In this document: positions 2,693 through 28,724 of the stretch, in pieces
Position numbering within the stretch: the stretch's first letter is position 1
Layout of the letters: each line of letters begins with the position of its first letter
DNA from: Lingula anatina
Lineage: Eukaryota; Animalia; Brachiopoda
Direction: 5' to 3'
Length of the DNA stretch: 64,000 bases
Assembly: GCA_051362555.1 (NCBI GenBank)
Contig: CM120646.1
Location: 434,001 to 498,000 of the forward strand
Translations under genes and position numbers: made by a program
The notes under the pieces: generated by a model
What the model was told of the DNA's origin: nothing
The model's input: the letters and a program-made list of their open reading frames with translations, nothing else
The model's database searches: none

Positions 2693-4358
2693 CAGGGTTA
2701 CCACTTAATATGGAATATTATTTTATGGCGAGTAAATTTTCTACAAAATATTTAATTTCTCTCTAACTACTTTAAATCCAAAGCTGAGGTGGCACTCCAT
2801 GTGTAGCCAGGTGTGTTACCTAATTACCACACTACTCTCGAAACAATTGATGCATGCAGTTGCATGTTCTGTGGTCAGAAATGTGAGGGGTGGTCTTTTC
2901 GGCAATTTCTGCTCTTGTATAAAAACGCATGGGTTTGGTCAATCTTTGGAGTGTGTCTAGAGAAGAAACAAAGGGATCGCTCTGAAACTTGACAGGTACC
3001 TTAGTGAAGATATGGTTCGACAGCTAAGCAACGCAGCTTACTATGGAATTCTTGCTCTCAGAGAAAATGGCCAGAAACGGACAGCCATTGCCAGGTAATT
3101 CAACATTTATCAGGAACCGTTTGTGAAGTCCTCTAAAGAAATGCTGCAACAGGGGCACCTACATGTACTCCAATACCTCGACCAGGGTGTCCGCGTATCA
3201 CACCAAGAAGACAGGATCGCCTTCTCCTTAGAGGACGCCGTGCTGGTCGTACAAAGACAACCCGTGTCCTCAGAAAAGAGAGGCAGAATGTCATTCAAAC
3301 GCCAGTTTCAAGGACCCTCGTGAACAAGAGATTACTGCAAGCTGGTTATTTTGCACGAAGGCCAGTAGGGAAACCACTGTTAACAGCAGGTCATATACAG
3401 CGACGTCTGCAATGGGCTGGGGACCACGTGCGTTTGCAGCCAAAACACTGGAATCACGTCGTTTTCAGTGATGAGGCAAGATATGGATTTTTTTAGGGTT
3501 GATCGTCGAATCCGTGTCCACCGACGTGTACGAGGGGCATAAAAGGATGATTGTGTACTTCCTAGGGTGCAAGCAGGGGATGGTAACGTCTCTGTTTGGG
3601 GAGCATTTCATGTCGGTACCCAGAACCAGTTGGTTTTTCTAGGAGGCAACCTCATCCAGGATTCCTACAGAGACATTCTACAGCAATCAATTCTTCAATT
3701 GGTAAGAGTCATCTTCAGGAACAATTTTGTGTACCAAGACGACTGCGCAACCCCACATCGAGGCCGCAGAATCACTGTTTTTCTTCAAAACCAATGGGTT
3801 CAGGAACTGCCCTGGCCTGCAAACTCTCCAGATATGAACCCAATTGAAAATCTGTGGGCGGAAGTAACTCACAGAATTCATAGTTATGGTCCTCGGCCGG
3901 TAAATAGTGATAAACTGCGACAGGCAAATATCACTGCGTGGAATGATATCCCCACCCAAACTCTAAAAAACGTGTCACAGGATATGCCATGTAAGATGAG
4001 GGCGCTGCAAGCGGCTGCTGGAGGTCATACCCGCAATTACTGACTTTTCATGATTTACTGTAGTGAGTTCTTTGTCTGTGTAACATATCACTGTCCGGAG
4101 GCTATCATTTTCTTTAATATCTTATCTTAAAGTTTATACTGACATCAAACTGTTGATATGGTTTTCTGGGGGTGTTCCTTTCTTTTGAATGACATCTTAT
4201 GTCAGATTTGATATTATTGACCAAAATATCTCACAACAGAAGACTGGATGTTATTATCACTCAGTGACATACTTTTTTAATGACTCAAGCCAAAAAAATT
4301 TAATCAGCACTCAAAAATAACAATGATAAAAAATATTCCATATTAAGTAGTAACCCTG
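2693..4358 (+). mobile_element. Full-length Tc1 (IS630-Tc1-mariner, DD34E) DNA transposon, inactive
   Basis: 27-bp TIRs with 1 mismatch (CAGGGTTACCACTTAATATGGAATATT at 2693; inverse ending at 4358), TA target duplication at 2691-2692 and 4359-4360, about 1.67 kb, internal transposase remnants. Confidence 0.95.
3012..4043 (+). pseudogene. Degenerate Tc1 transposase
   Basis: ATG 3012, in-frame TAA 3096, frameshift in the T-run near 3490 and another stop near 3540. Motifs WNHVVFSDE (first D), FVYQDD (second D) and WPANSPDMNPIENLW (E), with 34 residues between the second D and E. Confidence 0.9.
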
Positions 4359-6162: not shown

Positions 6163-7651
6163 GTAAGTATACGAAGTTCACTTATTGTATCAGGGTTGTC
6201 AAGCATTACTTTGCTTAAAACATGTAGATTTGTTGTTAACCTTGATATTAGTAATATAATATCACCTTTGAAGAATGGGTATCATATCTAAACCATGACA
6301 ATACCCTGTTTTTCAATGGGGTCGGTCTTTCTTGGGTCTACCTGCACATCGTTAAATCCGCTCAATTTAACTCATCTGAAGAGTTAATTAAACATTGAAA
6401 GCAAGTTAACTGTACAATCAAATTGAGCCCCCCCCCCCCCCTTGTGTAACGTTTCAGGGTGTAAGAGACCTAAACTGTGTTTCAAAAATCTTCAAATTTT
6501 GTGACGCTCTAGAAAAAAAATTCCGATGTATGTGATTTTCTCGGAGTTACTGTACCAGTGTTTCAGGTGTCAAAGTTTTCAAAGGGCTGACCATGGCTCT
6601 ATCGAGTTAAGAAAAATTAAATTTTCAGAAAATGAAATGTCAAAAGACGTTTTAAGCATTATAGAACGGTTACCAACGTAACAGAAAACTTAAAAATTTT
6701 CAGGAATATCCCACAAATGGTCCTCAAAAGTCAGTGTTGTGTAATTCTTTTACTTCGAGCCTGTCCGTAAGTTTACTAGAGGCCAATATAACTGGGCACA
6801 GGGGCTATAAAACAATAAGTAAGAAACCGCTTATATAACCATGGAGATAACTTCCTCGTGACTCAGATTCCTCTGACCATTAGATCAGACGCTGGACCCC
6901 GCGTTATAAAATGACTGACCAGATCAGGACAGACGCGTATTCTGTTGATAACGCACGTACACGTGGTACAGCGCGCACGTTCCCTGCTCCCAGTACCCGG
7001 TGTGTCAGTGCCTGTGATTGAGTCCTATTTTTTCACAGTATTTTCCATGTACTAGTTACAGTAAAATTTTATTATTACTGTGTTAATACATTACGGTACA
7101 GCCAGCAGAACTCACATACTGAAAAATATGATATCAAAATGACACAAAATCGAAATTAAATTAATTACAACATTGGTGTAAAAAGTGTCACATTCCTTCA
7201 CTCATTCTCAGAACACAACATAAAACTTTATAAACGTCTTTTGTTAAAATTACCGAAAATAATTCACTTAATGTAGTCTTTACAATTCCAGTAAGTAGAC
7301 TACACGGGTGAGCAATGAAAGTCTTCAGGTCATTTCTTGAACATATTAAAGTGCTATTTTAAGAAAACGGTGACATTTTTGTAATATTATGGAAACCACA
7401 GGCGACGGGTGTAGAATATGGACACGCATGGTTGTTACCTTGCGAATCTAAAAACTGCAAAAAGCGACCCTTAAAATATCACACGTAAGTGCTCATTAGA
7501 ATCAGTATTGTACTGGTCGGTGTTTTGTGCGATTTGATGAGAGTTATAATGTGCCATTTTAAAATCCATCAACCGATAAGGTTACAGCCACCAAATCCGT
7601 TTTTACAGCGTAATATTGAACGTCTTCCTTTTTTTTCAGACAAACCAGAAA

Positions 7652-9219
7652 ATGTACATGACCGAGGAGACGTCCAAGTTCCGTCACAAGCCCGCGGACA
7701 TTGCTCTAGTCGTCCTGGCAGCAGTGGCGTACACACTGTGTATCGTCTTCAACGCGTTGGCAGCGAGTCCCGCTGGGGTGTCAACAGGTGAGTGGACAGC
7801 AGACCCGCAGGTCAAGGGGGCGGGTTTACGAGGGGGGGGGGGGGTCCCCGTCCCTTTTCAGAAAACAACAGGGTGTATTCTGCTCCCTTACTTTTTCAAG
7901 AGAGGAGGTAACACATATTTCCTAAGAAGGCAAAGATGAACCCTACCTCAACCCCTAGATCAATCTGTGATTGTAATCCTTAGATTTGTCGTTCACCGTG
8001 AGAGTACAATAGAATGACACAGGTGGCTGATTAGATTTTACGTAATTTAAGAGTCCAGTTGACCCCTTCCGAACCATGGAATTCATTCAGTTCTATCACA
8101 GAGTACAGGCGTTATGAAAACAACGTTATCTAAATCGTTAATAATTACCCAGAACTTAAACTGAATGGGTCTCACCTTAACGATAAGGGTCACGGTAAGT
8201 TATGTCAGTGGTGGGGTGGGGTGGGGATCTGGGTGGGGTCTTACGACTCTCTACTAGAGCGTTTAAACTGACATGAAAGATAAACGACGAGATGAAAATA
8301 CCAAGAAAATGTGTAGTATTGAGCCATACTTAAATTGAGTTATTCTTGAAGACATATATGTAGTTATTATTATAATTGCTATGTAAATTATTTATTTTTA
8401 GCATTTTCAGTTATGTCAAAAATATTTTTGTTCTTCTTAGGTCTGTACCTTAACAACACGGGGGATATTGCCGACTATTTCTATTTAGAAATCACCCCGG
8501 CAGGATGGATGTTTTCTGTTTGGGGCTTCATCTACACTTGGCAATATCTCTGGATTATCTACGGCATTATCAACATATTCCGTCGCACGGATGACGGTTA
8601 TTTCTACGCCGTCTATCCCATTATGCCTCCCGCCATGTACGCCGTCTTCACCGTCAATAACATCTCGAACGTCGTCTGGCTGATTCTGTGGGACCGGCTG
8701 TTATCAGCTTGGGCCTTGCCTTGCATTGCCCTGGTGCCATTCACGCTCTATATCTGCCTGTTCATTTCATTCCGACGACTGAACGACAATAAAGTGACCA
8801 TGATAAATCAAGGATACAGAAAGGACGTCTGGTTGACACGATTTTTAACCCAGAACGGCATGGCTTTCTACGCCACGTGGACGACCATAGCAACCCTGTT
8901 GAATGTCGCCATAGTGATGACGTACGATGGTTCAGTCGCCATGGAAACCTCGTGCACCGCTGTCTTGGGGATTCTTGCAGTGGAGCTGTTGTTTTGGTTC
9001 ACTCTTGACAATTTTGTTCTGGACAAATTCACACGTTATTTATTCAGTCCCTTTATAATAATCCTGCTCGCGCTGACGGCGAGTCTCGTGCAAGGTTATG
9101 ATCCAACAAAGACCAATAAAATTTTCACGATGGTTTTGTTGGGCATTGCAAGTGTCATGGCGATCACTAAAGTGGCTTTCATGATTTGGCGACACAGAAC
9201 GCGCCCTCTAGAAAATTAA
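7652..9219 (+). CDS. Multi-pass membrane protein, TspO/MBR (tryptophan-rich sensory protein)-like, 304 aa; coding exons 7652-7787 and 8441-9219
   Basis: Phase-1 GT-AG junction (ACAG|GTGAGT at 7788; TTCTTAG|G at 8440) gives a continuous frame. About 8 hydrophobic segments and the motif EITPAGWMFSVWGFIYTWQ, resembling the ITPAGxxFSIWGxIY signature of TspO-related uncharacterised membrane proteins. AATAAA at 9634-9639. Confidence 0.85.
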
Positions 9220-9654
9220 TGTGAAATCAAATGAATCACGAACGAACAATATCATTATTTCATTATTGTAATACCGAGAAATCATGGTGGTGCTGCCCTG
9301 CTCTTTATTGTAGAACTGAAATATCCTAATACTGTTAGCCATCTTTAAGTGAATGCTTTCATTCATGCAGTTTTTAAACTTAGATTTCACAACATTTCGA
9401 CCTTATCTCAACGCCTTCTTCACTGCTGACGTGGAGTCCCTGGTGTCACCTGGTGACAGTGTGCGGGATGTCAACCAGTTCGACAGCCGATATTACTATC
9501 CCATATTAATCTGACTGTTTGAGGTCATTTGTAGTGGATATGCTATTTTTGTGTAGTTGTCGGAGAATTTCGAGACATAGCTAGTGCCATTTAATTTATA
9601 ACCGTTTAGTGTTTTTTTATACAAGTTGAATTGAATAAAAGATTGAAAAACAGC

Positions 9655-9955
9655 CTCACCCTGTTGAGAAATCTCAAGGCTGATTACATAGGCCTATCTG
9701 ATAATTGTTTGCTTAACTGCTCAGGCACTGCCACTTAGCAGGTCCAGTCTAAGTCTGCGTGACAGCAATCAAGACAGTTAATTACTCTGACTTCAATCAC
9801 TTGCTCTTCTGTGACAGATAAAAAAGCCTTAGACTGGTTGCGTAACGAGCAGTTATCACATCGTTGTGAAGCTCAGCTCATGCAGAGCAAGTACAAAGCC
9901 TTTGGCGCGCGCGCAGAGATAATTGTTTCCACATGGGATTCCTCAACAGGGTGAG
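9655..9955. mobile_element. MITE with 22-bp TIRs
   Basis: CTCACCCTGTTGAGAAATCTCA 9655-9676 versus the inverse of TGGGATTCCTCAACAGGGTGAG 9934-9955 (20/22). No clear target duplication. Confidence 0.65.
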
Positions 9956-11237
9956 TTGAGCCCTAAAAGACCATCTATCTAGCTAGAGACATATCTGTGA
10001 ATATCTGCAAAAAATCTATCACTCGCCCTTGTAGAGGGTACAAAGTAACTATGGGGTAAAAGAATTGATCACATCATTTTGTAAAGTGACCGCATCCAAT
10101 AGTGCTAAGAAAGCGCTGGCAGTGAGTCGAAATGAAATAATTTAGCATCTTAAAGTAACATTATTAAAGAGACTTGATAGGCCTATACACAAAACGATTT
10201 AATTAAAATAAAAGCGCAATATATTTATCGTTAATCAGCCTGATTAATTTACCAATTAAAGGTTATAACCGATTGACGTTGAGGAGGTATTCGGCTGAGT
10301 AGGCCTATAAGTTGGAGGTGATGATGATGATATGGCAGTTCAAACTAATGGACGTCCAAACAACGTGTTGAAGAATAAAAATATATACATCTTCCCGGTT
10401 TACATAACCTATTTCAAAGATTATAAAAAAAGATCAGTGTCTCTAAATCTGCCATTGTAATAGTTGAGACATAAGCGCAATGCGTTTTCTCCGCAAAACA
10501 CAAAAACCGATGACGCTTTGTTTTGTGTGCACGCTTTAAATAGCCTGTATACAAAATACTGCTGCAAGACCGCTGTCAACATCCGTGTTTCTTGCACAGT
10601 ATTTGTGTTTACTGAAGGTAAATATATGCATGGTGGTATAATATACATTTTTATTATAGTATGCACTGGCTAATGTGAATATGGCAAGAGTGGCTCTGTA
10701 AATATTACGATATGCCGGTGACCCAGCTCTCGTAGCTGGATTAAGCACCGCCATTTTCTTACTGCTCTGTTCTCTTTCCTTTCATTATAGCAATAGTGGT
10801 TATATCAAGGGTATAAATCTGAAATATGCAAGGAAATGTTTTCATATGTTTTTGCTCTGCTGTAGAATAATTGTTCTGCAGATGAAAAAGGCATCAAAAT
10901 TGCTCAACTCGCCAACAAGACGAATTGTAATGTTTGCTCAAATTTTACTTAAAAATGAAATGTATGCAAACTTTTGATACGAATTACCCCTTTTAAGCTG
11001 AAATACAAGCCAATTTTGTAATGAAAATACCCTTTGACTGCATGGATGAATGTGTAACTAGGTCAAGGTCATGAAAGGGTCACTGTCAGTAGGTCAAGGT
11101 CATGGCAGCTATGTAGGTCACTGTGACATTGCATTATAAGCTTAATGACTAAAGAAAGATTTAAATTATTGAGGCTATATTATATATATATTTAAAATAT
11201 GTAATGTATATGTGGATGTTAAAATGTATTTCAGAAC

Positions 11238-14200
11238 ATGCCGACCAGTACACTACCGCCCAAGAAAAAGTCGTACATCCCTGAGGAAGAAGGTATGTAT
11301 GTGCATGCATGAGTACACATATGTACAGATGCTTGCATTTTTAGCATGCATGCGCAAATATGTAAATAAGTGTGGATACTGTACATGCATGGTAATACAG
11401 TTCATAAATATAGTTTATATCCTGAAAAAATGGCAAAACATTTAAAAGATGCCTTTTATTTGTAAGATCATAATGCATGCTAGTTCAAGGCATCACATTG
11501 TTACCATTATGAATGTGAAAAGAAATGCTTAATAGTTCATACTAATATGTAGAATGTGAAAATGCTTAAAGAGAAAACAAGAAGAAAACAAAAATGGTCT
11601 GGAATACGTATACTTTCATTATAATAAACACACTGTATATAATATTGACATATTCTCTTGGTATCAGAGAGTGGTGTCACTGGCGCAATGCACCATGTCA
11701 CAACCACCGGTGTGGCTTTTCTGGACAGTTTGAGTGAGCTCCCCGCCAAACGCGCCCGCCCAGAACGTCTTCCAAAGGAAGAAAAACTGGTGGAATGGTA
11801 AGAATTTTGTTTCTATAAATAATGGCGCATGTTCTTGACAAAAAAATCATCACTATTATTTTATCCTATCACAGACAGTTTCTTACATGTTTTATGACAT
11901 TGTCAGTTTCTATCAGGACATCTTCTGATCAGTTTCATGCACAAACACCCGTAGTCACTCTATCACCTGTCCTGTCTACATTGAACAGTCTCAGTGACAT
12001 TAACACAAACAGACTGAGTAATGGCAATTCTTCTTAAGATATTCTGATTTAATGTCTCGACAGATGACCAGGGGGCTTATATTATAACATCCACCCGACT
12101 GTTGTCTTCAAAAACACAGATTGCATTATCTAATGTTTTAGGTTGAAGAATAATTTTGAGAAGAAAGAAGAAAAGAAAGTTGCAAAATCTGCAGCCTATG
12201 AAAAGTACCTTGAAGAATGTTCAGAGAACCCGGCCTTTGATAGTCTTGCACTAGACAAAGGGGATTTTTTAAAGGTGAAAAGTTTGTTTGGTGAAATATA
12301 ATAAGACTGTATTTCAGACATGCTGAAACTGTCGGTCCGATTGGTCATGACCGAGAAAATTTGTCTGGACCGGTAAAAATTTGGATTTGGTTGGTCCAAA
12401 GGACCGACAAGAGTTTTAAGAGCCGCAATTTTGCATTTACGATCATCATTCGACATACTTCACTAATAAAATTATATAAAACCCAAAGCGTTTGTCCCTT
12501 CCATTTCAAACTTTTCACATTCACAAACAAAGTAAGCTCCCCTAATCGTATCTGTCTCAAACTAATAGGGTTATTTTCGGTCCGACAAAAATCCATTCAG
12601 TCCGACAAATTTTTCATTAGTGCCGGTCCAAATGTCCAGCCATTCTGAAAATTTTTCAGCAGGTCTGGTATTTTAATAGTGCTTAAAAATGTGAATTCAG
12701 TACTTTTATTTTAAGGTATGCTTCATTCTTACCATTTCTGGCACCTCTGCTTTAACGTTGGTATAACCTTGCTTTGTTTCTTCAGAAGTTCAAAGATTTT
12801 ATTTTAAAATTGACTTTCAGGTGGTAAAAGAGATATTTGATGGTACGTTTGGGTTAAAAGAAAGCTCCAAGTATGTGGGCGAACTGAGAGAGGTGAAGAC
12901 CAGACCAAACCGTCCCAAGGTGAAGGCACCAAGTTTGGGGCTCAAAATGAAAGAAATTATTGAAAATGTCATCACAGAAGCTGGGAATCCTGTATCTTTT
13001 TACGAGGGAGTTTTCCACTTCAAGCTGCCCCTAGACCCCCATTCATAGACTATCAAGCCATTCCTTCCAACTGTTTTCTTACAAACCCAAATCATGTCTT
13101 CATAACTGATTCAGCAGTTAGCCAGCAATTGCACAGAAATCTAATTACTAAAAAGATTCTTTTTGTGAACGTAAAAGTTTTCCCATAGTTGTATCATAAT
13201 ATACTGGAAATACAAAATTGTTGCTGTTTAAACAGTACCAAAATGCTTTCTTTACATATGCCTCGGAGGAAAGGTTTGTGAAAAAAGTTTCACATAATTG
13301 TAGTATAATATTCAGGTACCAGTAAACCCAGCCACTCTCCCTTGGTACCATGTAAACATTTTCAAAAACACTTCCTTAACATCTGCCTCAGAGGAAAGGT
13401 GTAAGATTTTTCTTACTGAAGACTCAGATCGCCCACAAGTATCCAGCTTTGCGGATCATGGACTACCCTGAGAAGCTGAAGAAAAGTCTGGAGAGGGAAG
13501 TGAGGATGGGACACATTGAGGTGGTAAGTGAACTGGTCACATGTATTCCCTTGTGGAAATTTCCTACAGGACTCGATGGGGCTCTTCAGGAATTCTATTG
13601 AATGTCCTAGGACAAATGGTCTGTAGGACCTTACAGAGTTTTGACACTGTAGGACATCCTATTGGACCATATAGAAAATTTTCTCAGGAGTTATTTCAAT
13701 AAAGTTTTATTAATGTGGAGATTTAAAGTGTAAACTGTTGCTCATGTTGTATCTGAAGCTGTAGATAAACCCGAGCTCTACCTTCAGGTGCGTGGCATCG
13801 GCGCCTGTGGGTACTACCGCTGTCCTGGTGACCCCCTGAGGGAGGACGAGGAGGAAAACAAAGAAAACAAGAAAGAAACAAAGAAGAAAGGAGATGAGGA
13901 GAAAACAGAGGAGGGAGATGTGGAGAATGCTGAGGAAGGAGGGAAAGAAGGAGGAAGTGAGAAAGGAAAGGAGGAGGAGAATAAGGAGGTATTCATGTAT
14001 AGCAATAATATTTTCAGTTCTGAGCAACCATTACTCTCTGAATGCCAGTGTCACATTTTTGTAAGTCATTAGTCCAGGGGCCTCAAATTTTCTTTTTACA
14101 TAGATTATAATTTTATCGAGCTAAGTCCATGTTTCATCCAAATGACATTGTAATGCCAGCAATGAAAATAAAATGGTCAAGAAAATTTAGAAGTAAATAC

Positions 14201-16059
14201 CTCTTTGAGTATGTGACATGGTTGAGGATATTCACATATTTTGTTTGGTGTAATAGGGAGAAGAGGGAGATGATGAAGCTGAGAAGAGTGCAGGAGAAGA
14301 CAAGAAAAAGAAAAAGAAGAAGACTAAAAGAAAGCAAGCCAGTTACTGTAGGTACTATTTTAATTGTTTGAGTTTGGGTTTAATAAAGTAATGTCAGGCT
14401 TATATGGGGTTCATTTTGATACTGATTGCTTATAAATTGTGGGTATATGTCTATTTTTACGAGTCCTGTTCCAAATACCAACCACATCAGTACTATATTT
14501 GCATATTTAACTTTTAATCAGCAGCATACGGCCAGCGTATAGTGCACAGCCATCCGCAGAAAATAGAGGACACATTCCCATTGGCTCTTACCTTTATGGC
14601 AGATCCCAAGCACGCCACAATGGGGAAGATTAGCAATTACATCAACCGTTACTACCCCAACGTCAATATACAATCTAAGTAAGTCATTGAGAAAAAGGCA
14701 GAAAGTTTTAAAAAATTTTTTTGACAGTTGGTCACTGCATTGCTATTACAGTTGTTAAAAGTTTATTTTCCAAGTTTGATACTTGCTTTGAAGAGGAGTT
14801 GGAAATCTGAATATGTTAGTTGATGAGCACATGTTTAAAATACATTTTGGAAAAGAGTATTTTTTAAACTTATTTATGTATTTCTAGATTGAAGAAATGT
14901 CTGGAATCAGGAGAAGAGAAAGGGCTCTGGGTCAAATATTCTGGGAGTTCATACAGACTGGAGGCTGATGAGTTTGACCCCAGCAATGGTGAGATAGAAT
15001 ATGTCATCATATATCATACATATTGTGATGTAAGATCCCTTATGAAATTTTCTTTAAAACACTTAAGGAATTCTATCAGACATCCTGTGGGATTCCTATC
15101 TAGGATATATGTCCTATAGGAACCTGTAAAGTTTGGGCTACTATCCTATAGGATCCCACAGGAACTTTCAGTCAGGGATATATCATCACTATACACTGGG
15201 TAGGAAAACTCTTAATTGTAAAATGAATAAATATCTGTTGTATTTGATGTTTACAGTTGTATACATAGCTTGCATATCACAGCAGTGGTTGTTTAATGCT
15301 TTCACTATTTTGATTGCATTGAATTAATAGATTTGGACTTGAAATGTTTAACAAATAAAAAGAAAGAAACAGAATTTCTGTGCTCTAAACTCCAAAATAG
15401 ACAAAAACAATGCAGGTTTTGAACAATCTGAAGTCCAAATTGGAGGTATTTTGTGTATCTGGGATTTCAGAGGACAATCTTCCCACTCTGATCTGCAATG
15501 CTATTGTGGCATGTAATGAACCCAAACAGTGCAGCTCCAAGCTACTGAAGCAGTATATCATGGACTACCACCCTGACTTTAAAGTGGACGCCAGGCCGCA
15601 GCTCTTCAAGAGGGCTGTGGAGAGAGCCTTGAATAAGGGGACATTGAGGTGATGGGTTTATTATTATGTTAACAATAAGATTCCAACCCTTTCTCCCTGT
15701 GAGGTGCTTTATCCAATTCTGTCATTTTAATAACTTTCACATTGATTTTACATGAACCCAGTTTCTTTTCAAACTTTTGACAATATCACATTCACAGGAA
15801 ACATTGTATTTTGAATTATAAACAATTGTTGTGTTTATATTACATCATTCATAATACTGATGCCATATTTCTCCATTGGCAATCTTCCAGACAGCTGTCT
15901 GGTATTGGACTAACAGGTTCCTTCCAGCTGAGTAAACCTTTCACCCCCACCCCCTCCATGTTGGCTGGTACTGATACTGGAGACACTGATGATGAGGAGG
16001 GAGGAGAAGATTACTGGGAGGACAGCAAGGTAAAGGAGATAAGAATGAGGGCCACTGGG

Positions 16060-16103
<44 letters not shown>

Positions 16104-17096
16104 TATTCACTAAAATCACAACCTGAAAGTTGAAGTTGCACACATAAGAATAGAGAGAGATTCAGTTTTTATTGCACCAATTTTCTATTAATTTTAAGAA
16201 GGGCTCGTTAATTGGTTTTGGAAAGAAAATATGAGTAAGTGTTGCCAGTGTGAAGCTGGTAAGAATCAATTATAGCCGTTCAAAGACAGTAACTGTCATT
16301 GTGTTTAAGAAATTGAGGTAATGTCTTTTTTCCCATTCAGGTGTATGATGCATACGTTCCAAGGCCGTCCAAGAGAAGAGGTCATGGTCGTAAAGCCGCC
16401 ATTCGTGACCTTGACCAGCTGCAGATCAGACACGAGGTTAGCCGGAGGAAGAAGTCCACTGTGACTAAAAAGGGGCGAAAGACTACTACCAAACGCAGGT
16501 CGTATAAAGAGGAGAGTTCTGGCAGTGAATCAGAAAGTTCTTCAGAGTCGAGCTCATCATCATCATCATCATCATCAGAGGAAGAAGAGGAGGAGGAAAA
16601 GAAAGTGGCAGCAAAAACCAAAAGGAGGCAACCTCAAAAACAGCAGGGCAAACCTGCTAAAAAGACACCCCCGAAAAAACAAGGGGCTCGAAGTTCACCA
16701 AGGAAATCTCCCAAGTCTGTGTCATATGTGGAAGAGACAGATTCTGAGGGTGAAGAAGAAAAACCAGTGAGATCATCTGGCAAAAAAAGTAAAAGATCTG
16801 CTCCTGCCAAAAAATCCCAAGCTGAGGAAAGCGACCAATCAGAAGATGAGGCTGTCTCACAAAAGAAGAGTTCAAAGTCAACTCCAGCATCTACAAAGAG
16901 AGGCAGAAGATCGGCGTCAGCAAAGAAATCCCAGGACGAAAGTGACAAGTCAGAGGAAGAAGATGCAAAGAAGAGTCCAGGTAAAAAGTCGCCAGCAGCC
17001 TCACCTAAGAAGAGTAACAAGACTTCAACAAGGAAAAGATCATTTCAGGGCAATAGCTCTGGTGTCCCACCCAAAAAGAGAGGGCGGCCATCTTAA
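11238..17096 (+). CDS. HP1BP3: HP1BP3-like linker-histone (3x H15) chromatin protein, 747 aa; coding exons 11238-11292, 11668-11797, 12142-12274, 12821-12991, 13392-13523, 13788-13988, 14257-14347, 14522-14678, 14888-14988, 15471-15648, 15891-16029, 16341-17096
   Basis: All 11 junctions are GT-AG and phase-compatible (2244 nt). H15-1 MKEIIENVIT..HKYPAL..LKKSLERE..VRGIGACGYY; H15-2 IEDTFPLALTFMADPKHA..YYP; H15-3 NAIVACNEPKQCSSKLLKQYI..RPQLFKRAVERAL..QLSGIGLTGSFQL, each resembling the corresponding HP1BP3 domain. Lys/Ser-rich H1-like tail ending PKKRGRPS. A probable non-coding exon ends at a donor at 10618. Confidence 0.88.
12315..12667. mobile_element. Intronic MITE with 14-bp TIRs and 6-bp target duplication
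   Basis: CAGACATGCTGAAA at 12315 versus inverse CAGACCTGCTGAAA ending at 12667; exact GTATTT direct repeats at 12309-12314 and 12668-12673; internal GGTCCG/CGGACC-type subterminal motifs. Confidence 0.85.
12992..13391 (+). other. U12-type (minor spliceosome) GT-AG intron in the HP1BP3-like gene
   Basis: 5' site GTATCTTTT (U12 consensus RTATCCTTT, 1 mismatch), perfect branch point TTCCTTAAC at 13372-13380 ending 9 nt before the AG (13390-13391), no polypyrimidine tract, reading frame preserved across H15-1. Confidence 0.82.
13548..13690. mobile_element. Degenerate CCC-terminated, CCTATAGG-rich MITE (CMC/EnSpm-like)
   Basis: Imperfect TIR CCCTTGTGGAAATTTCCTA versus inverse CTCCTGAGAAAATTTTCTA; TT on both flanks; internal TCCTA/TAGGA motifs shared with the copy at 15037. 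Confidence 0.45.
15037..15177. mobile_element. CCC-terminated, CCTATAGG-rich MITE (CMC/EnSpm-like)
   Basis: Starts CCCT..TGAAA, ends TTTCAGTCAGGG, AT on both flanks (2-bp duplication); internal TCCTATAGGA palindromes. Confidence 0.5.
16062..16101. repeat. (ATA)n microsatellite
   Basis: About 13 ATA units in the last intron of the HP1BP3-like gene. Confidence 0.95.
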
Positions 17097-18951
17097 AGTT
17101 CACTAGAAACATTTCTAGAACAATTAATAAATGAACTAGATCACAGTGAGAGCGAGAGAGAAAGAAACATTTTATATTGTGGTAAGGGGACACTGCCAAA
17201 CCAATGTTGGAAAAAGCGAGCAGTATTTTCCGAAGTTTGTTTTGAAGACATTGTTGGAATGGCACAGTGCAGTTTGGAATGGACATAGACCAGTTGGTGC
17301 TGATGGTTACTGTAGAATCATGGTCACTTGTAGCATTAGAAGACAAACATTTTGATAATTTGTGGTTGAGGTAGTGGACCAGGTCGGCACAATACAGCAT
17401 TAGACTAGAGGAGTGACCCCCTGGGTGAGTGTCTGGCTGTCACCCCTGGGGTACTGACTGGATCCCCTGGGGGACACAATTGCTATAAGGTTCACTGTGA
17501 CATAAATAGAGAAGATTTCACCTCTAATGATGAGAATGTATTGACAATTTTTGATGACAGCAGATATATGCTGGTTCCTTTTTTGATGATGAAAGAAAAA
17601 TTCTGTTATAGTTGTGGATGTGTGGTTTCTTGACTAAAGCGCCAGCTACAGTCTGCAAATGCATACTAGTTACTTTATGGAGTTTCAGAATATTATTGTT
17701 GTAACACAGTGTGTGTTTGGTACTGGTTGACATATTAGAGTGGGAAGAGTTGATGTTGACACTGAGCGAACACTGTGGAAGGATACTTAAAAAAAAAAAA
17801 GCAGGAGTGAAAATGTTCGATGTGTAGGTGACCTCACAGTGAACCAAGTTGGTCATGAAGCTCTTGCAGTCCCGGCTGCCTTGATTATCAGACTGGATGA
17901 AGGTGGCCTTCTGCTGTACTGGTGACTCTGATCACAGTGACTTCAGCCAAGTCATTATTTCGACGTGGAATGCATGCTGACCATTTCGTCTTTTGGTTTG
18001 CATGAATGTTCATGTGGTTTGTTGAATCATAGAAACATTGTGTGTATAGTGCAGGAAGGAGAAGTAATATGGGGTATGTTGTTAGCAAAAAATTTTTTTT
18101 TCATGGAAAATTAATTTTAAAAAAGGTACCCCCCTTTCGACTTCAAACATGTCTTGAGCTGATATTTTTGTAACAGTTTAAATTAGTTTTTAATTGTAAT
18201 TTATAAAGCCCCAATTTGTAGCTAGCACATAAAAATAGGCTTCAGTTTATCATTTATTTTTAAAAACAATATCATGCGGATATTAGTATATGTTGTAGTT
18301 GTTGAAGGTCCTTTGTGTACTTAGTACACATTAGTAATATATACACACCTAGTACTAGTAACTGTATGTAGTAATGTACATGTTATAGTGTAGAAATGAA
18401 CATTGTTATTGTTAATAGGATGAAGTGCACAACTTGTGCCGAGGCCAGTGTCCTGTGACATCACACTTTGTAATTTTAAGTTTAGGAAGGTCCTGGAAAC
18501 CAGGCTTGGATTTCAAGTGAGGGGCTGAAGGGGGGGGGGGGGTAGTCCTAATATATCTAAGTGAACATCACACTTAAGTGGGTCAGACAGAATTGAAGAA
18601 ACTTTCATAATAAGTGGGAACTCACTGCATGGTAGCCTATTAGTTTGACAAGGAGTGCACATGTTGTCAGCATGGGTAAGCCATGTGACACTGCAGTATT
18701 ATGTCATCACGTGGAAGTGACATTGGTAAAACCAATCTGTACACTATTATTGGTCAAAGGTTTTCATAATTAGTCAACAGTGGTTGGCTCTTCATATCAC
18801 TGTAGACATGTGCTTCTTCTGTATCTCAGTGTTCTTGCAGTGAAAGTTGTAGTCGTGACACCAAAGTGTCTTTGTGAATGTTTTGTAATTTTAATGACTG
18901 AAAAGAAACAACTTCTGTCATCACTGACGTGACTTTATGCCATAGCTGAAA

Positions 18952-19107
18952 TCATGAAGTATGATATCAACTTTTGGTGATGTCATGGAAAAATGATATC
19001 AACTTTTGGTGATGTCATGGAAATATGATATCAACTTTAGATGATGTCATGAATTATGATAACAATAGTTGATGACATCAGTGGTAGTATGAAATCAACT
19101 TCTGATG
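18952..19107. repeat. 31-33 bp minisatellite, about 5 copies, in the probable HP1BP3-like 3' UTR
   Basis: ATGATATCAACTTTTGGTGATGTCATGGAAAA-type units starting at 18961, 18993, 19025, 19056 and 19089, decaying rightwards. Confidence 0.85.
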
Positions 19108-21924
19108 GTTTCTAAAGGCATTTCATTATGTTGTGCACATTTTATTGCAATTTTTACATTAAACTTTTAAAGGTCCTAAATAGTTGACTTTTCTTAAATA
19201 TGTATAAGGATGACATACATATTATTTGTAAATTTTATTTTCCCTTGTCTTTAAGTAAGTTCTAGATCTTGATAAATATGTTAGCTGATAGGTTGCAGAA
19301 TCTGAAACAGAAGGTCAGTTCTTTTACTGTAATTTTGAAAGATAACTTTTTTTTTCCAAATTACATGAATTTACTATTTTGGCATTGTAACAGACAAGTT
19401 TTGTTAAGTTTAAGGTACATGTAGATTGTTTCACTCATATAGTCAAGGTTTTATTATTCAATGAGGAACATGGTAAAACCTGTTCTAAACAGAGCTTCCC
19501 CTGCCATCACTTGCTATGGTGATATCTTTGGGTCTTGAACCCTTTGTTTTTTCTCAGTGTTTTAAGCTAAAACAAACTAGTTTCAAAAAAATCAACTTAT
19601 GTTAACACAGAGTTCTTTAATATTTTTCCAATTTTCATTTTAAGGTATCCCTATTGAAATATTGTTTAGGGCAAGGATATGCACAGATTTTTTTCTTAAG
19701 TGAGATTTTAAGTTTCATCAACTTATTTGCTTTCTTACATAATCTTATCTTTTTCTTATTCAAAGGTGCTCTGTACACATTTAATTGTTGTACACATTAA
19801 ATGTTATAACATGCAATCTACAGTTGAAGCATGCTTTTGAAGTAAGTATAACTTGAAGTCTACATGTTAAAATGTACAATGTTACATATATTATTGTCCA
19901 GCAAAGTCCTCTTTTAGTTAATATGTTTCTTATATATATGAAGATATCTGTTTATAGCGTAATTTATACAATATGCTTTTCATGTATTGAATGTTAGATG
20001 GCAGAAGTAAAAGCCTAGTTCTGATGTATTATATTTGTTTATCCATCCTCCATTTTTTAACCATCTACCGACAAAAAAATTAGATACCCGTCAATGTAAA
20101 CTTGACAATATGACCGTCATTGGGAACACGTCTTGACATTTAGTTCATTTTCTGCAGGTGACTACTGCAATGTTTTTCAACCAAAACAATACTTAACAGC
20201 TGCTTAATTTGTCAGGAAAATAATTTCATGCCATAAAAATTCCAAAAACAGGCAACTACACTGTGATCTGTAATAAAAGTTTAATTTCACAGGTACATGA
20301 CTCCATAAAGACAACAGACAATGAAAAAAGTAGTCACTATCTCCTACAAATGATGTCCAATACATGATAAACTGGCAAAGTGAGTCACAGGTAAAAAGCA
20401 GATTGCGATGTCTTGAACAGTTTGTCTTTTAACCCTTAATCAATGTAAGTTTTATATAAAATCAATCCTGAATGTGTTGTATATAAATGGAGTCATTTTG
20501 AATTCAGCCACTGCATCCATCTTGCAGAACATAACTACAATTTAAAATGGAAATTAATTTTTCTGATGTCACATCCAACCACCGTAGTAAACACAACCTT
20601 CTAAAACAGAAACAGCTAAAATTGGATTTAAGAAGCAAGAAAACCGTATAAGACAATAATGACTAGTTTACTTGGATAAACTACACTTGAATCTTACCAT
20701 CAGAGAAAATCTGAAAAACAGAACACATTATGGTTTAGGAGGAAAAATACTGCAATGATGACCTTGTTAAAAATGGTAGCCTTTTTAGAAAGATCAACAT
20801 GTTGTAACTGTAAGGTCATTTAGTTCATGTTTGGGCTAAAGTTTAGCTTACTAAAGAGCCTACAGGGTCACAGAGTTAGAAGGTATGTCTGACATATAAC
20901 AGTTGACAACAGCTTATAACAAACGTGATTATCTGGATATGATCGATGTTCCAAAGAGAATCAACTTGCAAAATTGCTGCTATATTCTGATAATGAGTAA
21001 AATCTGTTTTAAATTACAATGCAAAAAAATCCATCCTATAAACCTGTTGTACAGAATCATATGAAAACAAATTTTAAATTTAAAGATGGTAAAATCGCCA
21101 CCTATTTACCCCTAACATGACCAGCAATATCTTACCCCACGGAGGATATCTACCTTTCATCTTTTCAAACTAAAGACAAAATAAAAAGTTTACTTCAGAC
21201 TCATTTATCTGCAAATCCTTAAAATATTCTTAGTTTTGTTTCTACTACATGTAATGCTACCTTTCTGACTTTTACTCAGAAATCTGCTTCCTTTTGCTTT
21301 CCACAAGTACTCCCAAATAATAGTATATTTTATATTTAATTTTTTTCAAATACCTACGATAAGGGGATAAATGGATCTACAGATAGAAAATGTTTACCTA
21401 GCTTTGTTGCTTCCTCCTAACTTATCAATGTTTTTTTATTTATTTCATTTCCGTTCTATATATTTCAATATTACCAGTAACAAGTGAACACACTGACAAA
21501 AGGATACAAAAGTTGCATACATTTACAATGTATAATTTGAAGGGTTCAACACTGACCTATTGACCTGCAGCCTCGGAAAAAAATTGTGCAAGTATTTCTT
21601 TGTTCATGTTGCAACCAAGCAATGCAATCTTGACAATTTACAAATTAAACAATGAAGAATCATATATTTAAAAACACTGCCATCAAAACGTCATCATCAA
21701 CTGCAGTTTGGCCCTGAGCACGAGTTACAGCCGGTTTCCATAGCAACTACACATTGCAGTGCAATCCTACCACAACTGGCTGTAACAAGCTGCACGTGGC
21801 GCAAACAAGATTTGAGCTGGTCCAACTAATACCAACCGGTCAGCACCGGTCAAAACTGGCCAAAGTTTGATGAGCAAGATCAAACCGAGTTTGCCAGAAC
21901 CAGTTCTTTCCGGTATAAACCAGT

Positions 21925-24900
21925 TCAACTAGTTGGAACCAGTTCAAAATGATCTTGCTCCATTGGTTTCTTAATCCAGGCGCCTAGTCCTTGCGTCTCA
22001 AATGCTTTGAAAAGCTTCTGTTTTGCGAGCTGATAGTCAACAGCATTGGCCTTTGCCTCTACATAGAAACGAGGGAGCTCCGTCTGCCCTGACGCAGCTG
22101 AAACTTTGCCAAAGAGCTCATGGAAACAACGATAGAGAGCATGCTTGCAAACTCTGGATGGCTGTCCGTCTTCTGTCTTTCCTGTCGTAGCATTCACTAC
22201 CTCCAAGCTGGGGTCTCCAATGCACCAATTGACACTAAAACCTGGAGCTTTGCCTGGAAAATCATAGAATAAGACGGAGAAATAAAATTCATGCATGTGA
22301 CTGATTAGACAAATAGTATCACTTAGAGAAAAGTAAAATTTGCAACATACAAGCTAGTCCAAAACCAAACACATTTTTTGCACTGATGCAACCACTCTAA
22401 TTCTCCTGTAGTCTATCTAGAGTGCCCCAGAACAGTACCAACCTGGCTGCCTGCTCTCAGGGTTGCTGATTCCACTGAGAAGCGGTGTGTAGAGCTGGTA
22501 GGGTTGGGGGAGGTCCTCTATGCTGCCTAGTCTGATGTACAGAGCCCGGGACAGGTGCTCTCTGTGGTACAAGCTGCCCAGGATGACACTGCTGAAGTAG
22601 ATGGGGTCCACAAAGTGACTGAGGAGGGCACCTGCAGGGAAGAAGAAGTACATGTCTTAATTCCTGTGCAGGCTAAACTAGTAGAATTATAGAGAAAAAC
22701 AACAATTCTTATTCAACCATATAGGGGGCAAAACACTTAAGATGAGACAAATTTCCCGCGTCATTTCATCTCACACAAACTTTTCACATTTTTTCTTGTG
22801 CAAGGATCATAACATTATATACATGACCAGCTTATCTTGTCTCAATGCTCTAACTGTATGCTAGGAGGAGCAATTGCCAGTGTTGACATCTTCATACCTT
22901 GAACCCCGAGAACGTTCCACCGTGCCAGCTTGTCACTGCAGGACATGGTGAGAAGACGCTCCCCCTGAAGTACACCGTCCCATGTCTGTACTGGAGAGTT
23001 GGCTTTCACTGGAATGGTGCCTGGAAGAACAGACAAATTTGACATCAGTGCCATCTTTTGAACAACACAGAGCAGCTGCAGTGTGGACTCTGGTTGTAGA
23101 TTTTGCTGTCCTTTATCTTTACTAAGTTCAGATTTCTGTCTCTGAAATGGCGCTTACAAGTACAAGATATAAAGTTTCACAGCAATTACTTGATTTCTCA
23201 GTCCAACAGCATGAATATGTCTGAAAAAGATTTCTGTAAATTTTCAAAAGCTTTAGATGTTATATTAGTTTTTATGGAAAAAGCAGATTCTATTCTGAAG
23301 AGTAACATTCTCCATTATAAAACAAGGTTCCATCTAAAAAGTTCTCAGGTAAATGTCATTTTGACCTTTAACTTTTTTTTTTCGCATGGAAATAAAAAAG
23401 AACCAACAAAAAATGGTCCCCTCACCTTCTCCAGATTCGATCTTTGTCCTTAGCTGCCCTCGCGCCCGTCTGTTTGGATGGCGGTCAGAATTGTCATCCT
23501 GACCCAATTCATGGGGCGAGAATATTCTGGCGTCCCCACAGGGGCTGGTGCTTATATACAGGTGAAAATTGACGTCATCTTTCAGACGGTAGCCACCGCC
23601 ATCTTTGGGGGTAAAGATGCTCTCTTCACTGTTCTCGTTATTTACATGGAGCTTCAGTTGGGAGTAGAAATAGCGCAGTAAGCAGCGTCGTGCGATGATC
23701 TCTGCATGACAGTCGTTCAGTCCATACCCGTGATCGTTGATGTGTTCACCGTTGATGCATTTTGTTCCTGTTGACAGTGTTATTACCTGGAAAATGAACA
23801 ACTGTGCAAATAACAGATGTGCTGTGAGACAAGTTGAAAATCAGAAATATTCTGAAAAATTTTCCATTTAACAATACATTTTATCAAACTTATTCCCTTT
23901 GAGTGTCATAACATACAGCTTACGCACATTCATTAGACATCTGATAAATTAGCTTTCACTTCTTATGTAGTACAGCAAACTATCACCATTTATCATTATT
24001 TAATTTGCATGTATGTTAACCATAATGCCATATTGAATTTTCTCCAAATTTTAAATGTGACTCCCAGACTCCTCCAGAGGAACCCACCTTTCCCGGCTCG
24101 TCTTTCTGTGTCTGAACTATTCCAGCCAGGACCTTACGGCGCGACTGCGGGGTTGTCATGTTGTTAGTCAGCTCCGCAAACTTCTCATGGACTGCACCAA
24201 CAACGAGGTCGGCAAGTATTGCTGGCGCAGTCCCAGAGAAGTTGGGCCCAACTACCGGCTGTAGAGCTGATAAAATAAAATGAAACATCAGGATATTTAC
24301 ATATCTTTGCCCAAAGATTCTTGCTTGTAAACATGGGCTACGTGACGAGCAATGCCTTTTAAGTCTATCAGCCTCACTGCTGGCTGGCAAGTGATTTTAT
24401 ATCAAAACTTTCTTGATAATTGATTTTGTCTGGGTATACCCAGTATAGAAAGATGACAGCAGTTTTAACTTGTGCCTTTTAAACATTAATCAATGAGACA
24501 TATTTGTGAACACTATCACTATAAAGACAGATTGCGCAAATGTCATTACAAGAAAAGAACATATGACAATGTTCCGACTTATGGGGCCCTGTGCTCAAGG
24601 GACCTTTTTACTGCTTCATTAAGTTTTCAGTTGTATTTCTTCTTACCGCACTTTTAATTGCAGACTATAAAGTTCTACTAAAATTCATTGAATGAGAACA
24701 TAAATGTAAATTAAGGATAATACCAATCATTTCGGCTATGTTGAATATGAGACGCATTAGCAAAGGACGTAATATAAAATATTGGCAAAATATCTCACTT
24801 CCTTCTGCCACGTTTGTACAGAGTTTCCTGCCATCTGAGACAATTTTTTCTGGTCATTGCCCAAATGAGCTAAACTAGATTCAACAATTGGAAGCTAAAT

Positions 24901-27292: not shown

Positions 27293-28724
27293 CTGAAATG
27301 ATAAGACAACATAAGATAAAGAGTGAGACTGAACATTAACATTACATAAGATTAAGTATTACCCTGACTTTGGTAAAATAATTGTAGCAGGTGCTCAAAA
27401 AGTTTTATGTAGCAGCAGGTGGAACCCGACAGCATCATAATTCTTATTGCAGGAATACATTGCTTCCTGTTACAAAAAAATCCTTCTTAACATGTCTACA
27501 GTGAATTTACATTTTAGGCATCCTTCTCTGTTGTATCTGTAGCAAGGTATTTCCCAGAGAGCCCTCTAGCCATCATTTGGACAGCCACTGGGCTCAAAAG
27601 ATGGCCTATATTTTCAAAGACAGCTGGATCCTTTAAGAAATTTCTGGGGAATGACGGTATATTTGTAGTTGGACTCCCTGTAAATTGGTGACAAAATCAG
27701 AGATCAACATTTTGGACACCCTGTATCCCAAACCCTGGGGAAACCCTCTAATCTGTTGTGATAGAAAATACTATACACTTGGTTAAAACTGTTCTAAATA
27801 CATGCAGAGAAACGATTCAGAACCATGTTGATTCTTGTCACCCCAGAAGAGACCTTTTAATCGGCAACCTATAAGCATGGACGTAATGAATTCTTACATC
27901 ATAGGTCTTATCTCACTCAGAGCTGGGTATCAACACTGGAATTTGTACCTTAGATATGTAAACCTTGTTTTGAAATGAACAATAATTAAAATACATATTG
28001 CAATTTTATAACTGGCCAAAGTCAAATGTAGTCTGAAAACCCTTTAGAACAGATATACTGTATATATAAGTGATATTTTTTTCTTATTTAGATAAGAAAT
28101 GGTGTCATCGGGCTTTGTCACCTGGGTTAACAATGAAATTAAAATATGTATGTTAATAAAAAAGTAGATCACCACTCATAAATAGACCCTCTAATTGAGT
28201 TCTAAATTGGATACCAAGCATCAAAGGAAGTCTTGAAATAAAGAAAAATTATTCTTCACCCAATGATGGATCCCCATAATCCATCATCACTTTTAAGGTT
28301 AATGGAATAACTGAAAGCTAATTAAGCCCTCTTTGCCTAATTCCTCTTCCCATTATATTTTTCATCACCTAAGGCAAAAGATTAATGTGCTGTTATCTTC
28401 TATCTTCAGGTTAAGTCACAGTGTGATCAGTCAAAATGATGGCTCATTTCTCATCTTCATGGTTGAATTAACTGGAGTAATTACCTGTCTATCTAAACAG
28501 AAATGTACATTTTAAGATTCCAAATCACAGGACTCTGAATGTATAGACTTGTCATTAAACATGTTATTTACTAATATTTAAAATAACACCTGAATACTAA
28601 GAGGATCTTTCTTAAGCAATGGGTTTTAATCCCTGGAGGAGGCAATCTTGTATATTGATACCACAGTGACTGTAATTGTAATTCAAAGAATGCAATACCA
28701 GTAAGACACTCTTGTCAAATAGGT

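What the first reader, a model, noticed from the sequence alone, without database searches (positions are those of the whole stretch)
11788..12890. RFX-type winged helix fused in front of three H15 domains in an HP1BP3-like protein
Seen: the spliced exons encode LVEWLKNNFEKKEEKKVAKSAAYEKYLEECSENPAFDSLALDKGDFLKVVKEIFDGTFGLKESSKYVGELRE. This follows the RFX DNA-binding-domain pattern (V.WL..N.E, S..Y..YL..C.E, F.K....F.G, SKY) by eye, but lacks the basic RTRRLGTRG wing that reads the X-box. Known: vertebrate HP1BP3 is described with three H15 domains and an HP1-binding N-terminus, not an RFX domain. Inference: a four-winged-helix linker-histone-like protein with a degenerate RFX fold, an architecture I do not recall being described. 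It is invisible in the ORF track because it is split over three exons.
Basis: partly seen in the sequence, partly recalled or inferred. Interest (0 to 1): 0.78.

Follow-up and report, generated by a model that had tools for sequence, protein, structure and literature searches.

The report
Clipped RFX domain on HP1BP3-like protein
This spliced, transcribed lamp-shell gene encodes a protein with three histone-H1-type domains preceded by a domain related to RFX transcription factors that is predicted to have lost its DNA-sequence-reading hairpin; molluscs and annelids share the layout, and the extra domain likely helps grip chromatin without reading sequence.

Summary
The gene has 12 coding exons (746 aa). 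RNA reads support 10 of its 11 coding introns, including both inside the RFX domain, and one exon encodes both the end of the RFX domain and the start of the first H15. The protein is 737 of 744 identical to NCBI's Lingula anatina HP1BP3. Its N-terminal domain passes Pfam RFX_DNA_binding (29.7 bits; cut-off 27), and its model matches RFX5 and RFX1 best. The RFX + 3xH15 layout occurs in 20 named brachiopod, mollusc and annelid species; no named hit lies outside Lophotrochozoa. Helix-3 basic residues are kept, the core is acidic, and no conserved HP1-binding PxVxL was found. Most likely it is a non-sequence-specific chromatin-gripping accessory to the first H15 (about 50%). Databases already flag the domain pair automatically, but my searches found no paper describing it, and this scan had not noted it before. 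Verdict: new variant of a known kind; interest 0.5.

The parts
10560..10617 (+). 3' part of the non-coding first exon (donor at 10617; 5' end not mapped, start coordinate approximate)
   Evidence: Joint 10617^11236 in X1, X4, X7, X8 and X3, X5, X9
11238..11292 (+). Coding exon 1, start codon, residues 1-18
   Evidence: joint 11292^11668 in 12 reads of X9
11668..11797 (+). Coding exon 2: basic K/R arm (residues 44-49, 11742-11759; possible NLS or DNA arm) and start of RFX helix 1
   Evidence: K[KR]x[KR] before helix 1 in 29 of 30 family members; joints
12142..12274 (+). Coding exon 3: RFX helix 1 end, strand 1, helix 2, first half of helix 3 (K106 = RFX1 K45)
   Evidence: This exon alone hits PF02257 at E=6e-4; model
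12821..12991 (+). Coding exon 4: end of helix 3, inferred wing-deletion point (residues 112-114, 12836-12844), last strand and S-x-Y motif (115-124), conserved basic tail, linker and first helix of GD1 in one open frame
12941..13826 (+). H15 globular domain GD1 (residues 147-220; exons 12821-12991, 13392-13523, 13788-13988)
   Evidence: Model helices and strands; only PDB sequence hit of the middle exon is HP1BP3 2rqp, E=0.06, of homologue P0031 2rqp, E=0.003; family net charge +7.1
13827..14550 (+). Long charged GD1-GD2 linker (residues 221-313; acidic then basic)
   Evidence: Low pLDDT; 78-140 aa in 26 homologues; net -17 then +10
14554..14972 (+). H15 domain GD2 (residues 315-384); begins P-Q-K-I, no canonical PxVxL in front of it
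15473..15939 (+). H15 domain GD3 (residues 391-465), tightly linked to GD2
   Evidence: PF00538; 2rqp E=3.6e-8 against H1 E>=0.013; GD2-to-GD3 spacing 76-81 aa in 26 of 26
15940..17096 (+). Acidic tract and long, mostly basic disordered C-terminal tail with four S/T-P-x-K/R sites; stop at 17094-17096
   Evidence: joint 16029^16341

Best explanation
The gene encodes a spliced, transcribed HP1BP3-like protein in which an RFX-type domain, predicted to lack its whole DNA-reading wing hairpin, sits just before the first of three histone-H1-type domains and likely acts as a non-sequence-specific helper for gripping chromatin. Shown: the exon structure, the RFX and H15 homologies, conservation across brachiopod, molluscs and annelids, loss of the canonical wing arginines in either alignment register, and two closely spaced domain pairs (RFX-GD1, GD2-GD3) separated by a long charged linker. 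Predicted: a 17-residue deletion of the hairpin. Inferred: GD1 docks at the nucleosome entry/exit site as reported for human GD1; the clipped RFX domain, through its helix-3 Lys/Arg and the basic arm and tail that flank it, touches neighbouring linker DNA electrostatically and cannot read the X-box; GD2-GD3 can reach a second site; and the protein is a housekeeping chromatin organiser not anchored by a canonical HP1 motif.
For: Splicing and expression. RFX homology. Wing loss: the model range 20-81 covers 1dp7 1-76 with 59 aligned, leaving 17 chain residues unmatched; hhalign opens a 17-column gap over the wing in all three modes (probability 98.9-99.1%); a PSSM prefers this register in 30 of 30, and the reverse test in 22 of 32. 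Six of the nine RFX1 DNA contacts listed in PMC12311785 lie in that segment. Of the other three, the K45 equivalent is K/R in 30 of 30, R48 in 22 of 30, R19 in 3 of 30. The basic arm has 57.7% mean identity, among the best-kept segments. Spacing from the invariant S to GD1 is 18-26 residues in 28 of 29. Analogies from papers: human GD1 binds nucleosome entry/exit sites (PMC4344522 citing earlier work); MORF WH1-WH2 places one winged helix on linker DNA and its H1-like one on the dyad (PMC9908889). An oyster EST annotated as HP1BP3 ranks among the most evenly expressed genes (CV 0.028; PMC3191543; same family assumed).
Against: No binding data exist for any member. The core is net acidic (mean -3.0, range -5 to +2, n=30, against +4.6 in 35 canonical domains; part of this is the deleted wing itself), and the small residues A41 and G44 beside K45 (35 of 35 in canonical domains) are replaced, so even helix-3 contact may be gone. 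The basic arm could be only an NLS. The core is less conserved (35%) than the GDs (47-52%). The deletion register is not settled by sequence alone: a BLOSUM sum prefers the other register in 19 of 30, edited HMMs split 15 of 30 and favour the other register for this protein (33.4 against 31.7 bits), and HMMER and MAFFT chose it by default. The domain model rests on 11 sequences (pLDDT 72, pTM 0.56) and Foldseek E-values were only 0.21-0.24.
Confidence: 0.5

Rival explanations
1. The clipped RFX domain is a pseudo-DNA-binding domain reused as a protein-docking or self-regulating module: its acidic core binds a partner, histones or the adjacent basic GD1, and the K/R arm is an NLS.
For: Acidic core against GD1 at +7.1; loss of R19, A41, G44 and the wing; family-specific conserved tail after S-x-Y (44% identity; columns); RFX5 uses an acidic surface to contact H2A/H2B (PMC12311785).
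Against: A basic residue is kept at the K45 position in 30 of 30 and at R48 in 22 of 30; the RFX5 histone-contact position is Glu in only 11 of 30 and Lys here; no partner is identified.
Confidence: 0.3
2. The domain still reads DNA sequence, but a new motif, using helix 3 and the basic arm (or a shortened, rewired wing), making the protein a sequence-targeted linker histone.
For: Invariant basic residue at K45 and invariant S122; in the alternative register a short wing keeps K at R62 (22 of 30), G60 (19 of 30) and Y67 (22 of 30); precedent of an atypical winged helix reading CpG next to an H1-like one in MORF/MOZ (PMC9908889).
Against: K45 is R in 16 and K in 14 of 30, which suggests charge rather than base reading; R58 is absent in 30 of 30; the core is acidic and evolves faster than the GDs.
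Confidence: 0.12
3. The domain is a folded spacer with little function of its own, kept mainly because it lies between the NLS and GD1.
For: Identity of 35% is nearer the linkers (25-33%) than the GDs (47-52%); vertebrate HP1BP3 works without it (PMC4344522; Atlas chordate cluster lists PF00538 only).
Against: Present in 58 of 59 H15-bearing proteins examined, the exception being an N-terminally truncated fragment; W, C, F and S core positions and the K45 charge are kept across three phyla.
Confidence: 0.08

Closest known systems
Vertebrate HP1BP3 (HP1-BP74)
   Same: Three H15 domains, an acidic tract and a basic tail (PMC4344522). GD1 and GD3 match human HP1BP3 2rqp better than any H1; GD2-GD3 matches a chordate HP1BP3 cluster over 155 residues. 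NCBI gives the same name.
   Different: A folded RFX-type domain replaces the unstructured Glu-rich N-terminus; no conserved PxVxL (human PQVKL at 255-259); GD1-GD2 linker of 78-140 aa; bivalve and cephalopod members have only 45-61 residues after GD3.
RFX transcription-factor DNA-binding domain (RFX1 1dp7, RFX5 8zjr; PF02257)
   Same: Three-helix core, W/Y/C/F core residues, K45 and mostly R48, last strand and following K-E-x-S-x-Y/L motif.
   Different: Wing hairpin predicted deleted (17 aa); R19, A41 and G44 mostly lost; net acidic core; no BCD domain in the protein; forms its own clade (100/99).
KAT6A/KAT6B (MOZ/MORF) WH1-WH2 tandem
   Same: An extra winged helix directly before an H1-like one; one on linker DNA, one on the dyad (PMC9908889). 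A works-like analogy.
   Different: WH1 is SAMD1-type and reads unmethylated CpG; no acetyltransferase here; the extra domain is RFX-derived.
ARID2 RFX-like domain (PBAF)
   Same: RFX-type domain in a chromatin protein rather than a transcription factor; profile hit E=8e-5; tentatively placed on extranucleosomal DNA (bioRxiv 10.1101/2022.05.20.492795).
   Different: Part of a remodelling complex, no H15 domains; whether its wing is changed in the same way was not tested.

Membership tests
RFX DNA-binding domain (PF02257) | Profile score above the curated cut-off | tested here: met
   29.7 bits against 27, but only profile positions 4-56 of 79; several homologues fall under the cut-off
RFX DNA-binding domain (PF02257) | RFX-type helical fold | tested here: met
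   Predicted model: RFX5 Z 8.5, rmsd 1.7, 65 aligned; RFX1 Z 6.7, rmsd 1.7, 59 aligned; next chain Z 5.6
RFX DNA-binding domain (PF02257) | Wing with R57, R58, G60, R62, K66, Y67 | tested here: not met
   Deleted in the preferred register; in the other register R58 is Arg in 0 of 30, R62 in 1 of 30, K66 basic in 3 of 30
RFX DNA-binding domain (PF02257) | Helix-3 contacts K45 and R48 | tested here: met
   K/R in 30 of 30 and 22 of 30; K106 and K109 here
RFX DNA-binding domain (PF02257) | X-box binding | not testable with these tools
   Needs EMSA or SELEX
RFX transcription factors | BCD (dimerisation) or RFX5 N-terminal domains in the same chain | tested here: not met
   P0001 has no such Pfam hit at E<=1
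HP1BP3 | Three H15 globular domains | tested here: met
   Three in the model and by family HMMs; Pfam resolves two in P0001 and three in several homologues
HP1BP3 | Globular domains closer to HP1BP3 than to H1 | tested here: met
   2rqp is the top or only PDB hit; GD1 hits are weak (E 0.003-0.06) and 2rqp is a single HP1BP3 domain
HP1BP3 | PxVxL HP1-binding motif between GD1 and GD2 | tested here: not met
   No conserved P-x-V-x-[LMVI] in 59 proteins; one (P0029) has a match just before GD2, and four including this one have a loose match inside GD2; GD2 starts P-Q-K-I here
HP1BP3 | Acidic tract and basic C-terminal tail | tested here: met
   Net -10 at 466-500, +26 at 584-746; tail short in bivalves and cephalopods
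HP1BP3 | Unstructured Glu-rich N-terminal region | tested here: not met
   Residues 54-132 are modelled as a folded domain, pLDDT mostly 75-91
HP1BP3 | Orthology to the vertebrate gene by tree or shared introns | not tested
   No full-length vertebrate or other deuterostome sequence came back or 80
HP1BP3 | HP1 binding and heterochromatin enrichment | not testable with these tools
   Needs co-IP and imaging

The most novel reading that the evidence does not exclude
Across Lophotrochozoa a linker-histone-like protein carries a transcription-factor domain that lost its wing but reads a new DNA motif through helix 3 and a basic arm, giving a sequence-targeted linker histone; vertebrates replaced this targeting module with the HP1 hook, and the triple-H15 gene goes back to the bilaterian ancestor.
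Probability: 0.12. Interest if true: 0.8.

Novelty: new variant of a known kind. Interest (0 to 1): 0.5.

Why it matters
HP1BP3 is described as a vertebrate elaboration of the H1 family (PMC4344522, discussion). A triple-H15 relative in brachiopods, molluscs and annelids would, if orthologous, move its origin to at least the bilaterian ancestor, with different lineages using different add-ons: an RFX-derived domain here, an HP1 motif in vertebrates. The domain is also a natural experiment: an RFX fold apparently stripped of the hairpin that reads the X-box and kept across three phyla, which allows a direct test of what the helical half of an RFX domain does. In practice the database name 'HP1-binding protein 3' may mislead for these animals, and automatic RFX hits on them should not be counted as RFX transcription factors.

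Tried and rejected
Own genome not held, so copy number and this species' canonical RFX genes were not checked. No RNA holder was listed by index; runs of the same species label were laid instead. Chimeric gene model: rejected by reads and by exon 12821-12991 holding both domains in one frame. Species-specific oddity: rejected. Intact canonical wing: rejected in both registers. Wing lost by exon skipping at the present intron: rejected, since the deletion point lies 6-8 codons inside exon 4. Foldseek on the full-length model gave no E<=0.001 and mostly H1 domains. Complex prediction of RFX domain with GD1: no verdict, score 0.00, alignment not used. Donor RFX subfamily unresolved: AU p 0.25 and 0.26 for the two alternatives tested; best tree support 84; ARID2 was not in the tree. 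Atlas feature scores were all under 0.9. Metagenome scan: 6 loci of 86 candidates, no outgroup identified. Paper searches found no description of the pairing: HP1BP3+RFX (14 papers, listing only); HP1BP3+linker histone+evolution+invertebrates (0); RFX+winged helix+nucleosome+linker histone (5, listing only); HP1BP3+globular domains+phylogenetic (1); HP1BP3+mollusc (1); RFX+Capitella+Lottia (1, listing only); HP1BP3+invertebrate (10, listing only apart from the two read in part). The library lacks most subscription papers, and no supplements were read. Earlier scan notes: one unrelated H15 fusion, nothing on this.

Full report
Gene and expression. Reading 9000-20000 gives a plus-strand gene of 12 coding exons, 11238-17096, all with GT-AG introns and a 746-codon open frame. 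RNA reads from eight runs of the same species label (four per call) support a 5' UTR intron and 10 of the 11 coding introns, including both introns inside the RFX domain and the joins into and through GD1. Reads use the 14525 acceptor. The join 13988^14257 was not listed. No single read spans the whole transcript, but exon 12821-12991 itself encodes the end of the RFX domain, the linker and the first helix of GD1, so the fusion is visible in the DNA. The product is 737 of 744 identical to P0001, which NCBI names HP1BP3 of Lingula anatina; the window is therefore from that brachiopod or a very close relative.

The N-terminal domain is RFX-derived. P0001 scores 29.7 bits on PF02257 (cut-off 27), over profile positions 4-56 of 79 only. 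A profile of 11 family members finds RFX5, ARID2 and RFX1 as its only good PDB hits (E 9e-6 to 2e-4; next 0.72). The domain model (pLDDT 72, pTM 0.56) matches RFX5 (Z 8.5) and RFX1 (Z 6.7) first among 48,161 chains (same values). Foldseek ranks the same two first with probability 0.97 but E about 0.2.

What happened to the wing. Canonical RFX domains have two similar stretches 13 residues apart: the wing ending in S-K-Y, and the last strand followed by K-E-x-S-x-Y/L. Residues 114-124 here can be placed on either. Three lines favour the other register, a clean 17-residue deletion of the hairpin. (1) The structural alignment ends at model residue 81 against the last residue of 1dp7, with 17 of 76 chain residues unmatched (deduced from ranges, since residue pairs are not printed). 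(2) hhalign opens a 17-column gap over the wing in all three modes. (3) Substitution patterns agree column by column from 116 to 124; a PSSM prefers this register in 30 of 30, the reverse test in 22 of 32. Against it, a BLOSUM sum prefers the wing register in 19 of 30, and edited HMMs split 15 of 30 and favour the wing register for this protein. My canonical set was picked by a wing motif, so its wing columns are invariant by construction, which biases the forward PSSM test. I put the deletion at about 80%. In either register the canonical reading is lost: R58 is Arg in 0 of 30 and R62 in 1 of 30. Of nine DNA contacts listed for RFX1 and RFX5 (PMC12311785; abstract, section 23, first part of the discussion and passages read), six lie in the hairpin; K45 stays basic in 30 of 30, R48 in 22 of 30, R19 in 3 of 30; A41 and G44 are replaced; the core averages -3.0 net charge against +4.6.

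Distribution. The layout RFX + three H15 is found in proteins named from 20 species: one brachiopod, three annelids (Capitella, Owenia, Dimorphilus) and 16 molluscs covering gastropods, bivalves and cephalopods (phylum placement from my own knowledge). Of 131 proteins fetched, 59 carry a family H15 domain and 58 of these carry the RFX domain too; the exception is a fragment starting at GD2 (some are near-copies or short fragments). Many were found with the RFX region, but five found with GD2-GD3 alone all have it (63-113 bits), as do the two intron-free metagenome loci of six. An unfiltered search of 1.84 billion representatives with the RFX profile gave 96 hits; I looked up names for 30 proteins (26 of these hits and 4 earlier ones), and no named RFX + H15 protein lay outside Lophotrochozoa. 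Many hits are unnamed. The family's RFX domains form one clade against canonical ones (100/99; 96 with wings removed and six long or incomplete rows left out), and GD1, GD2 and GD3 each group by position (100/99, 87/77, 99/93; two long-branch proteins left out). A chordate HP1BP3 cluster lists only PF00538 and the human N-terminus is described as unstructured. No other deuterostome, ecdysozoan or cnidarian HP1BP3 came back, so gain in Lophotrochozoa and loss in vertebrates cannot be told apart.

Relation to HP1BP3. GD3 matches human HP1BP3 2rqp at E=3.6e-8 against 0.013 for the best H1; GD1 hits only 2rqp, weakly; GD2-GD3 aligns over 155 residues with a chordate HP1BP3 model. Orthology is likely (about 85%) but was not tested by a tree with vertebrate sequences. 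The human HP1 motif PQVKL lies between GD1 and GD2 (PMC4344522; abstract, section 17, end of the discussion and passages read). Here GD2 begins P-Q-K-I and no PxVxL is conserved, so I call it HP1BP3-like and do not claim HP1 binding. Both genes have 13 exons with the start in exon 2 if there is only one UTR exon here; intron positions were not compared and this may be chance.

Anatomy and mechanism. Spacings define two pairs: RFX-GD1 (18-26 residues from the invariant Ser to GD1 in 28 of 29) and GD2-GD3 (76-81 start to start in 26 of 26), separated by 78-140 charged residues. Mean pairwise identity among 26 full proteins is 58% for the basic arm, 35% for the RFX core, 47-52% for the GDs and 25-33% for linkers. 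The full-length model shows four separate folded domains (pTM 0.33). I infer that GD1 (+7) binds at the nucleosome entry/exit site and that the clipped RFX domain, with its helix-3 basic residues and basic flanks, adds non-specific contact to neighbouring linker DNA, much as MORF WH1 sits beside its H1-like WH2 (PMC9908889; abstract and section 14 read) but without a read-out. The acidic core keeps a protein-docking role a strong rival. ARID2's RFX-like domain has been tentatively placed on extranucleosomal DNA (bioRxiv 10.1101/2022.05.20.492795; passages read). An oyster EST annotated as HP1BP3 is among the most evenly expressed genes (PMC3191543; one passage read).

Novelty and score. Precomputed Pfam already lists both families on 9 of 14 hits, while UniRef names several members only as H15-domain proteins. 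Seven paper searches found no description of the pairing, within a library that lacks most subscription papers; no supplements were read. The clipped wing, the missing HP1 motif and the lophotrochozoan range are the additions. New variant of a known kind; interest 0.5.

Noticed in passing
Proteins P0023, P0024, P0026, P0032, P0034, P0035, P0038 (not in the window): A family of 870-1090 aa proteins with five tandem RFX DNA-binding domains, several with altered wings; the one named member is from the mantis shrimp Oratosquilla oratoria.
   Followed up: partly
window 12315-12667: MITE-like element with 14-nt terminal inverted repeats inside the intron that splits RFX helix 3; reads from many divergent copies pile up on it.
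   Followed up: partly
window 9655-9955: Second non-coding element with 22-nt terminal inverted repeats and multi-copy read pile-up, upstream of the gene.
   Followed up: no
window 21928-27335, minus strand: ADAR-type gene (two dsrm domains and adenosine deaminase exons), convergent with the HP1BP3-like gene.
   Followed up: partly
window 3137-4040, plus strand: Tc1/mariner transposase remnant (HTH_Tnp_Tc3_2 and DDE_3 in separate frames).
   Followed up: no
window 7580-9219, plus strand: Hydrophobic multi-pass membrane-protein-like reading frames (289 aa at 8350-9219) with no Pfam hit.
   Followed up: no
P0002, P0005, P0009, P0010, P0012, P0020, P0028: These homologues (named ones and their clusters are bivalves and cephalopods) have only 45-61 residues after GD3 with near-zero net charge, so they lack the H1-like basic tail.
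   Followed up: partly
window 13240-13275: 36-nt, 83% identical copy of the acceptor region of the 13392 exon lies 125 nt upstream in the intron; no joint to it was listed in the reads.
   Followed up: no
window 14522-14525: Tandem CAGCAG acceptor; reads use 14525. P0001 is one residue shorter in the preceding lysine run and one in a later glutamate run.
   Followed up: yes
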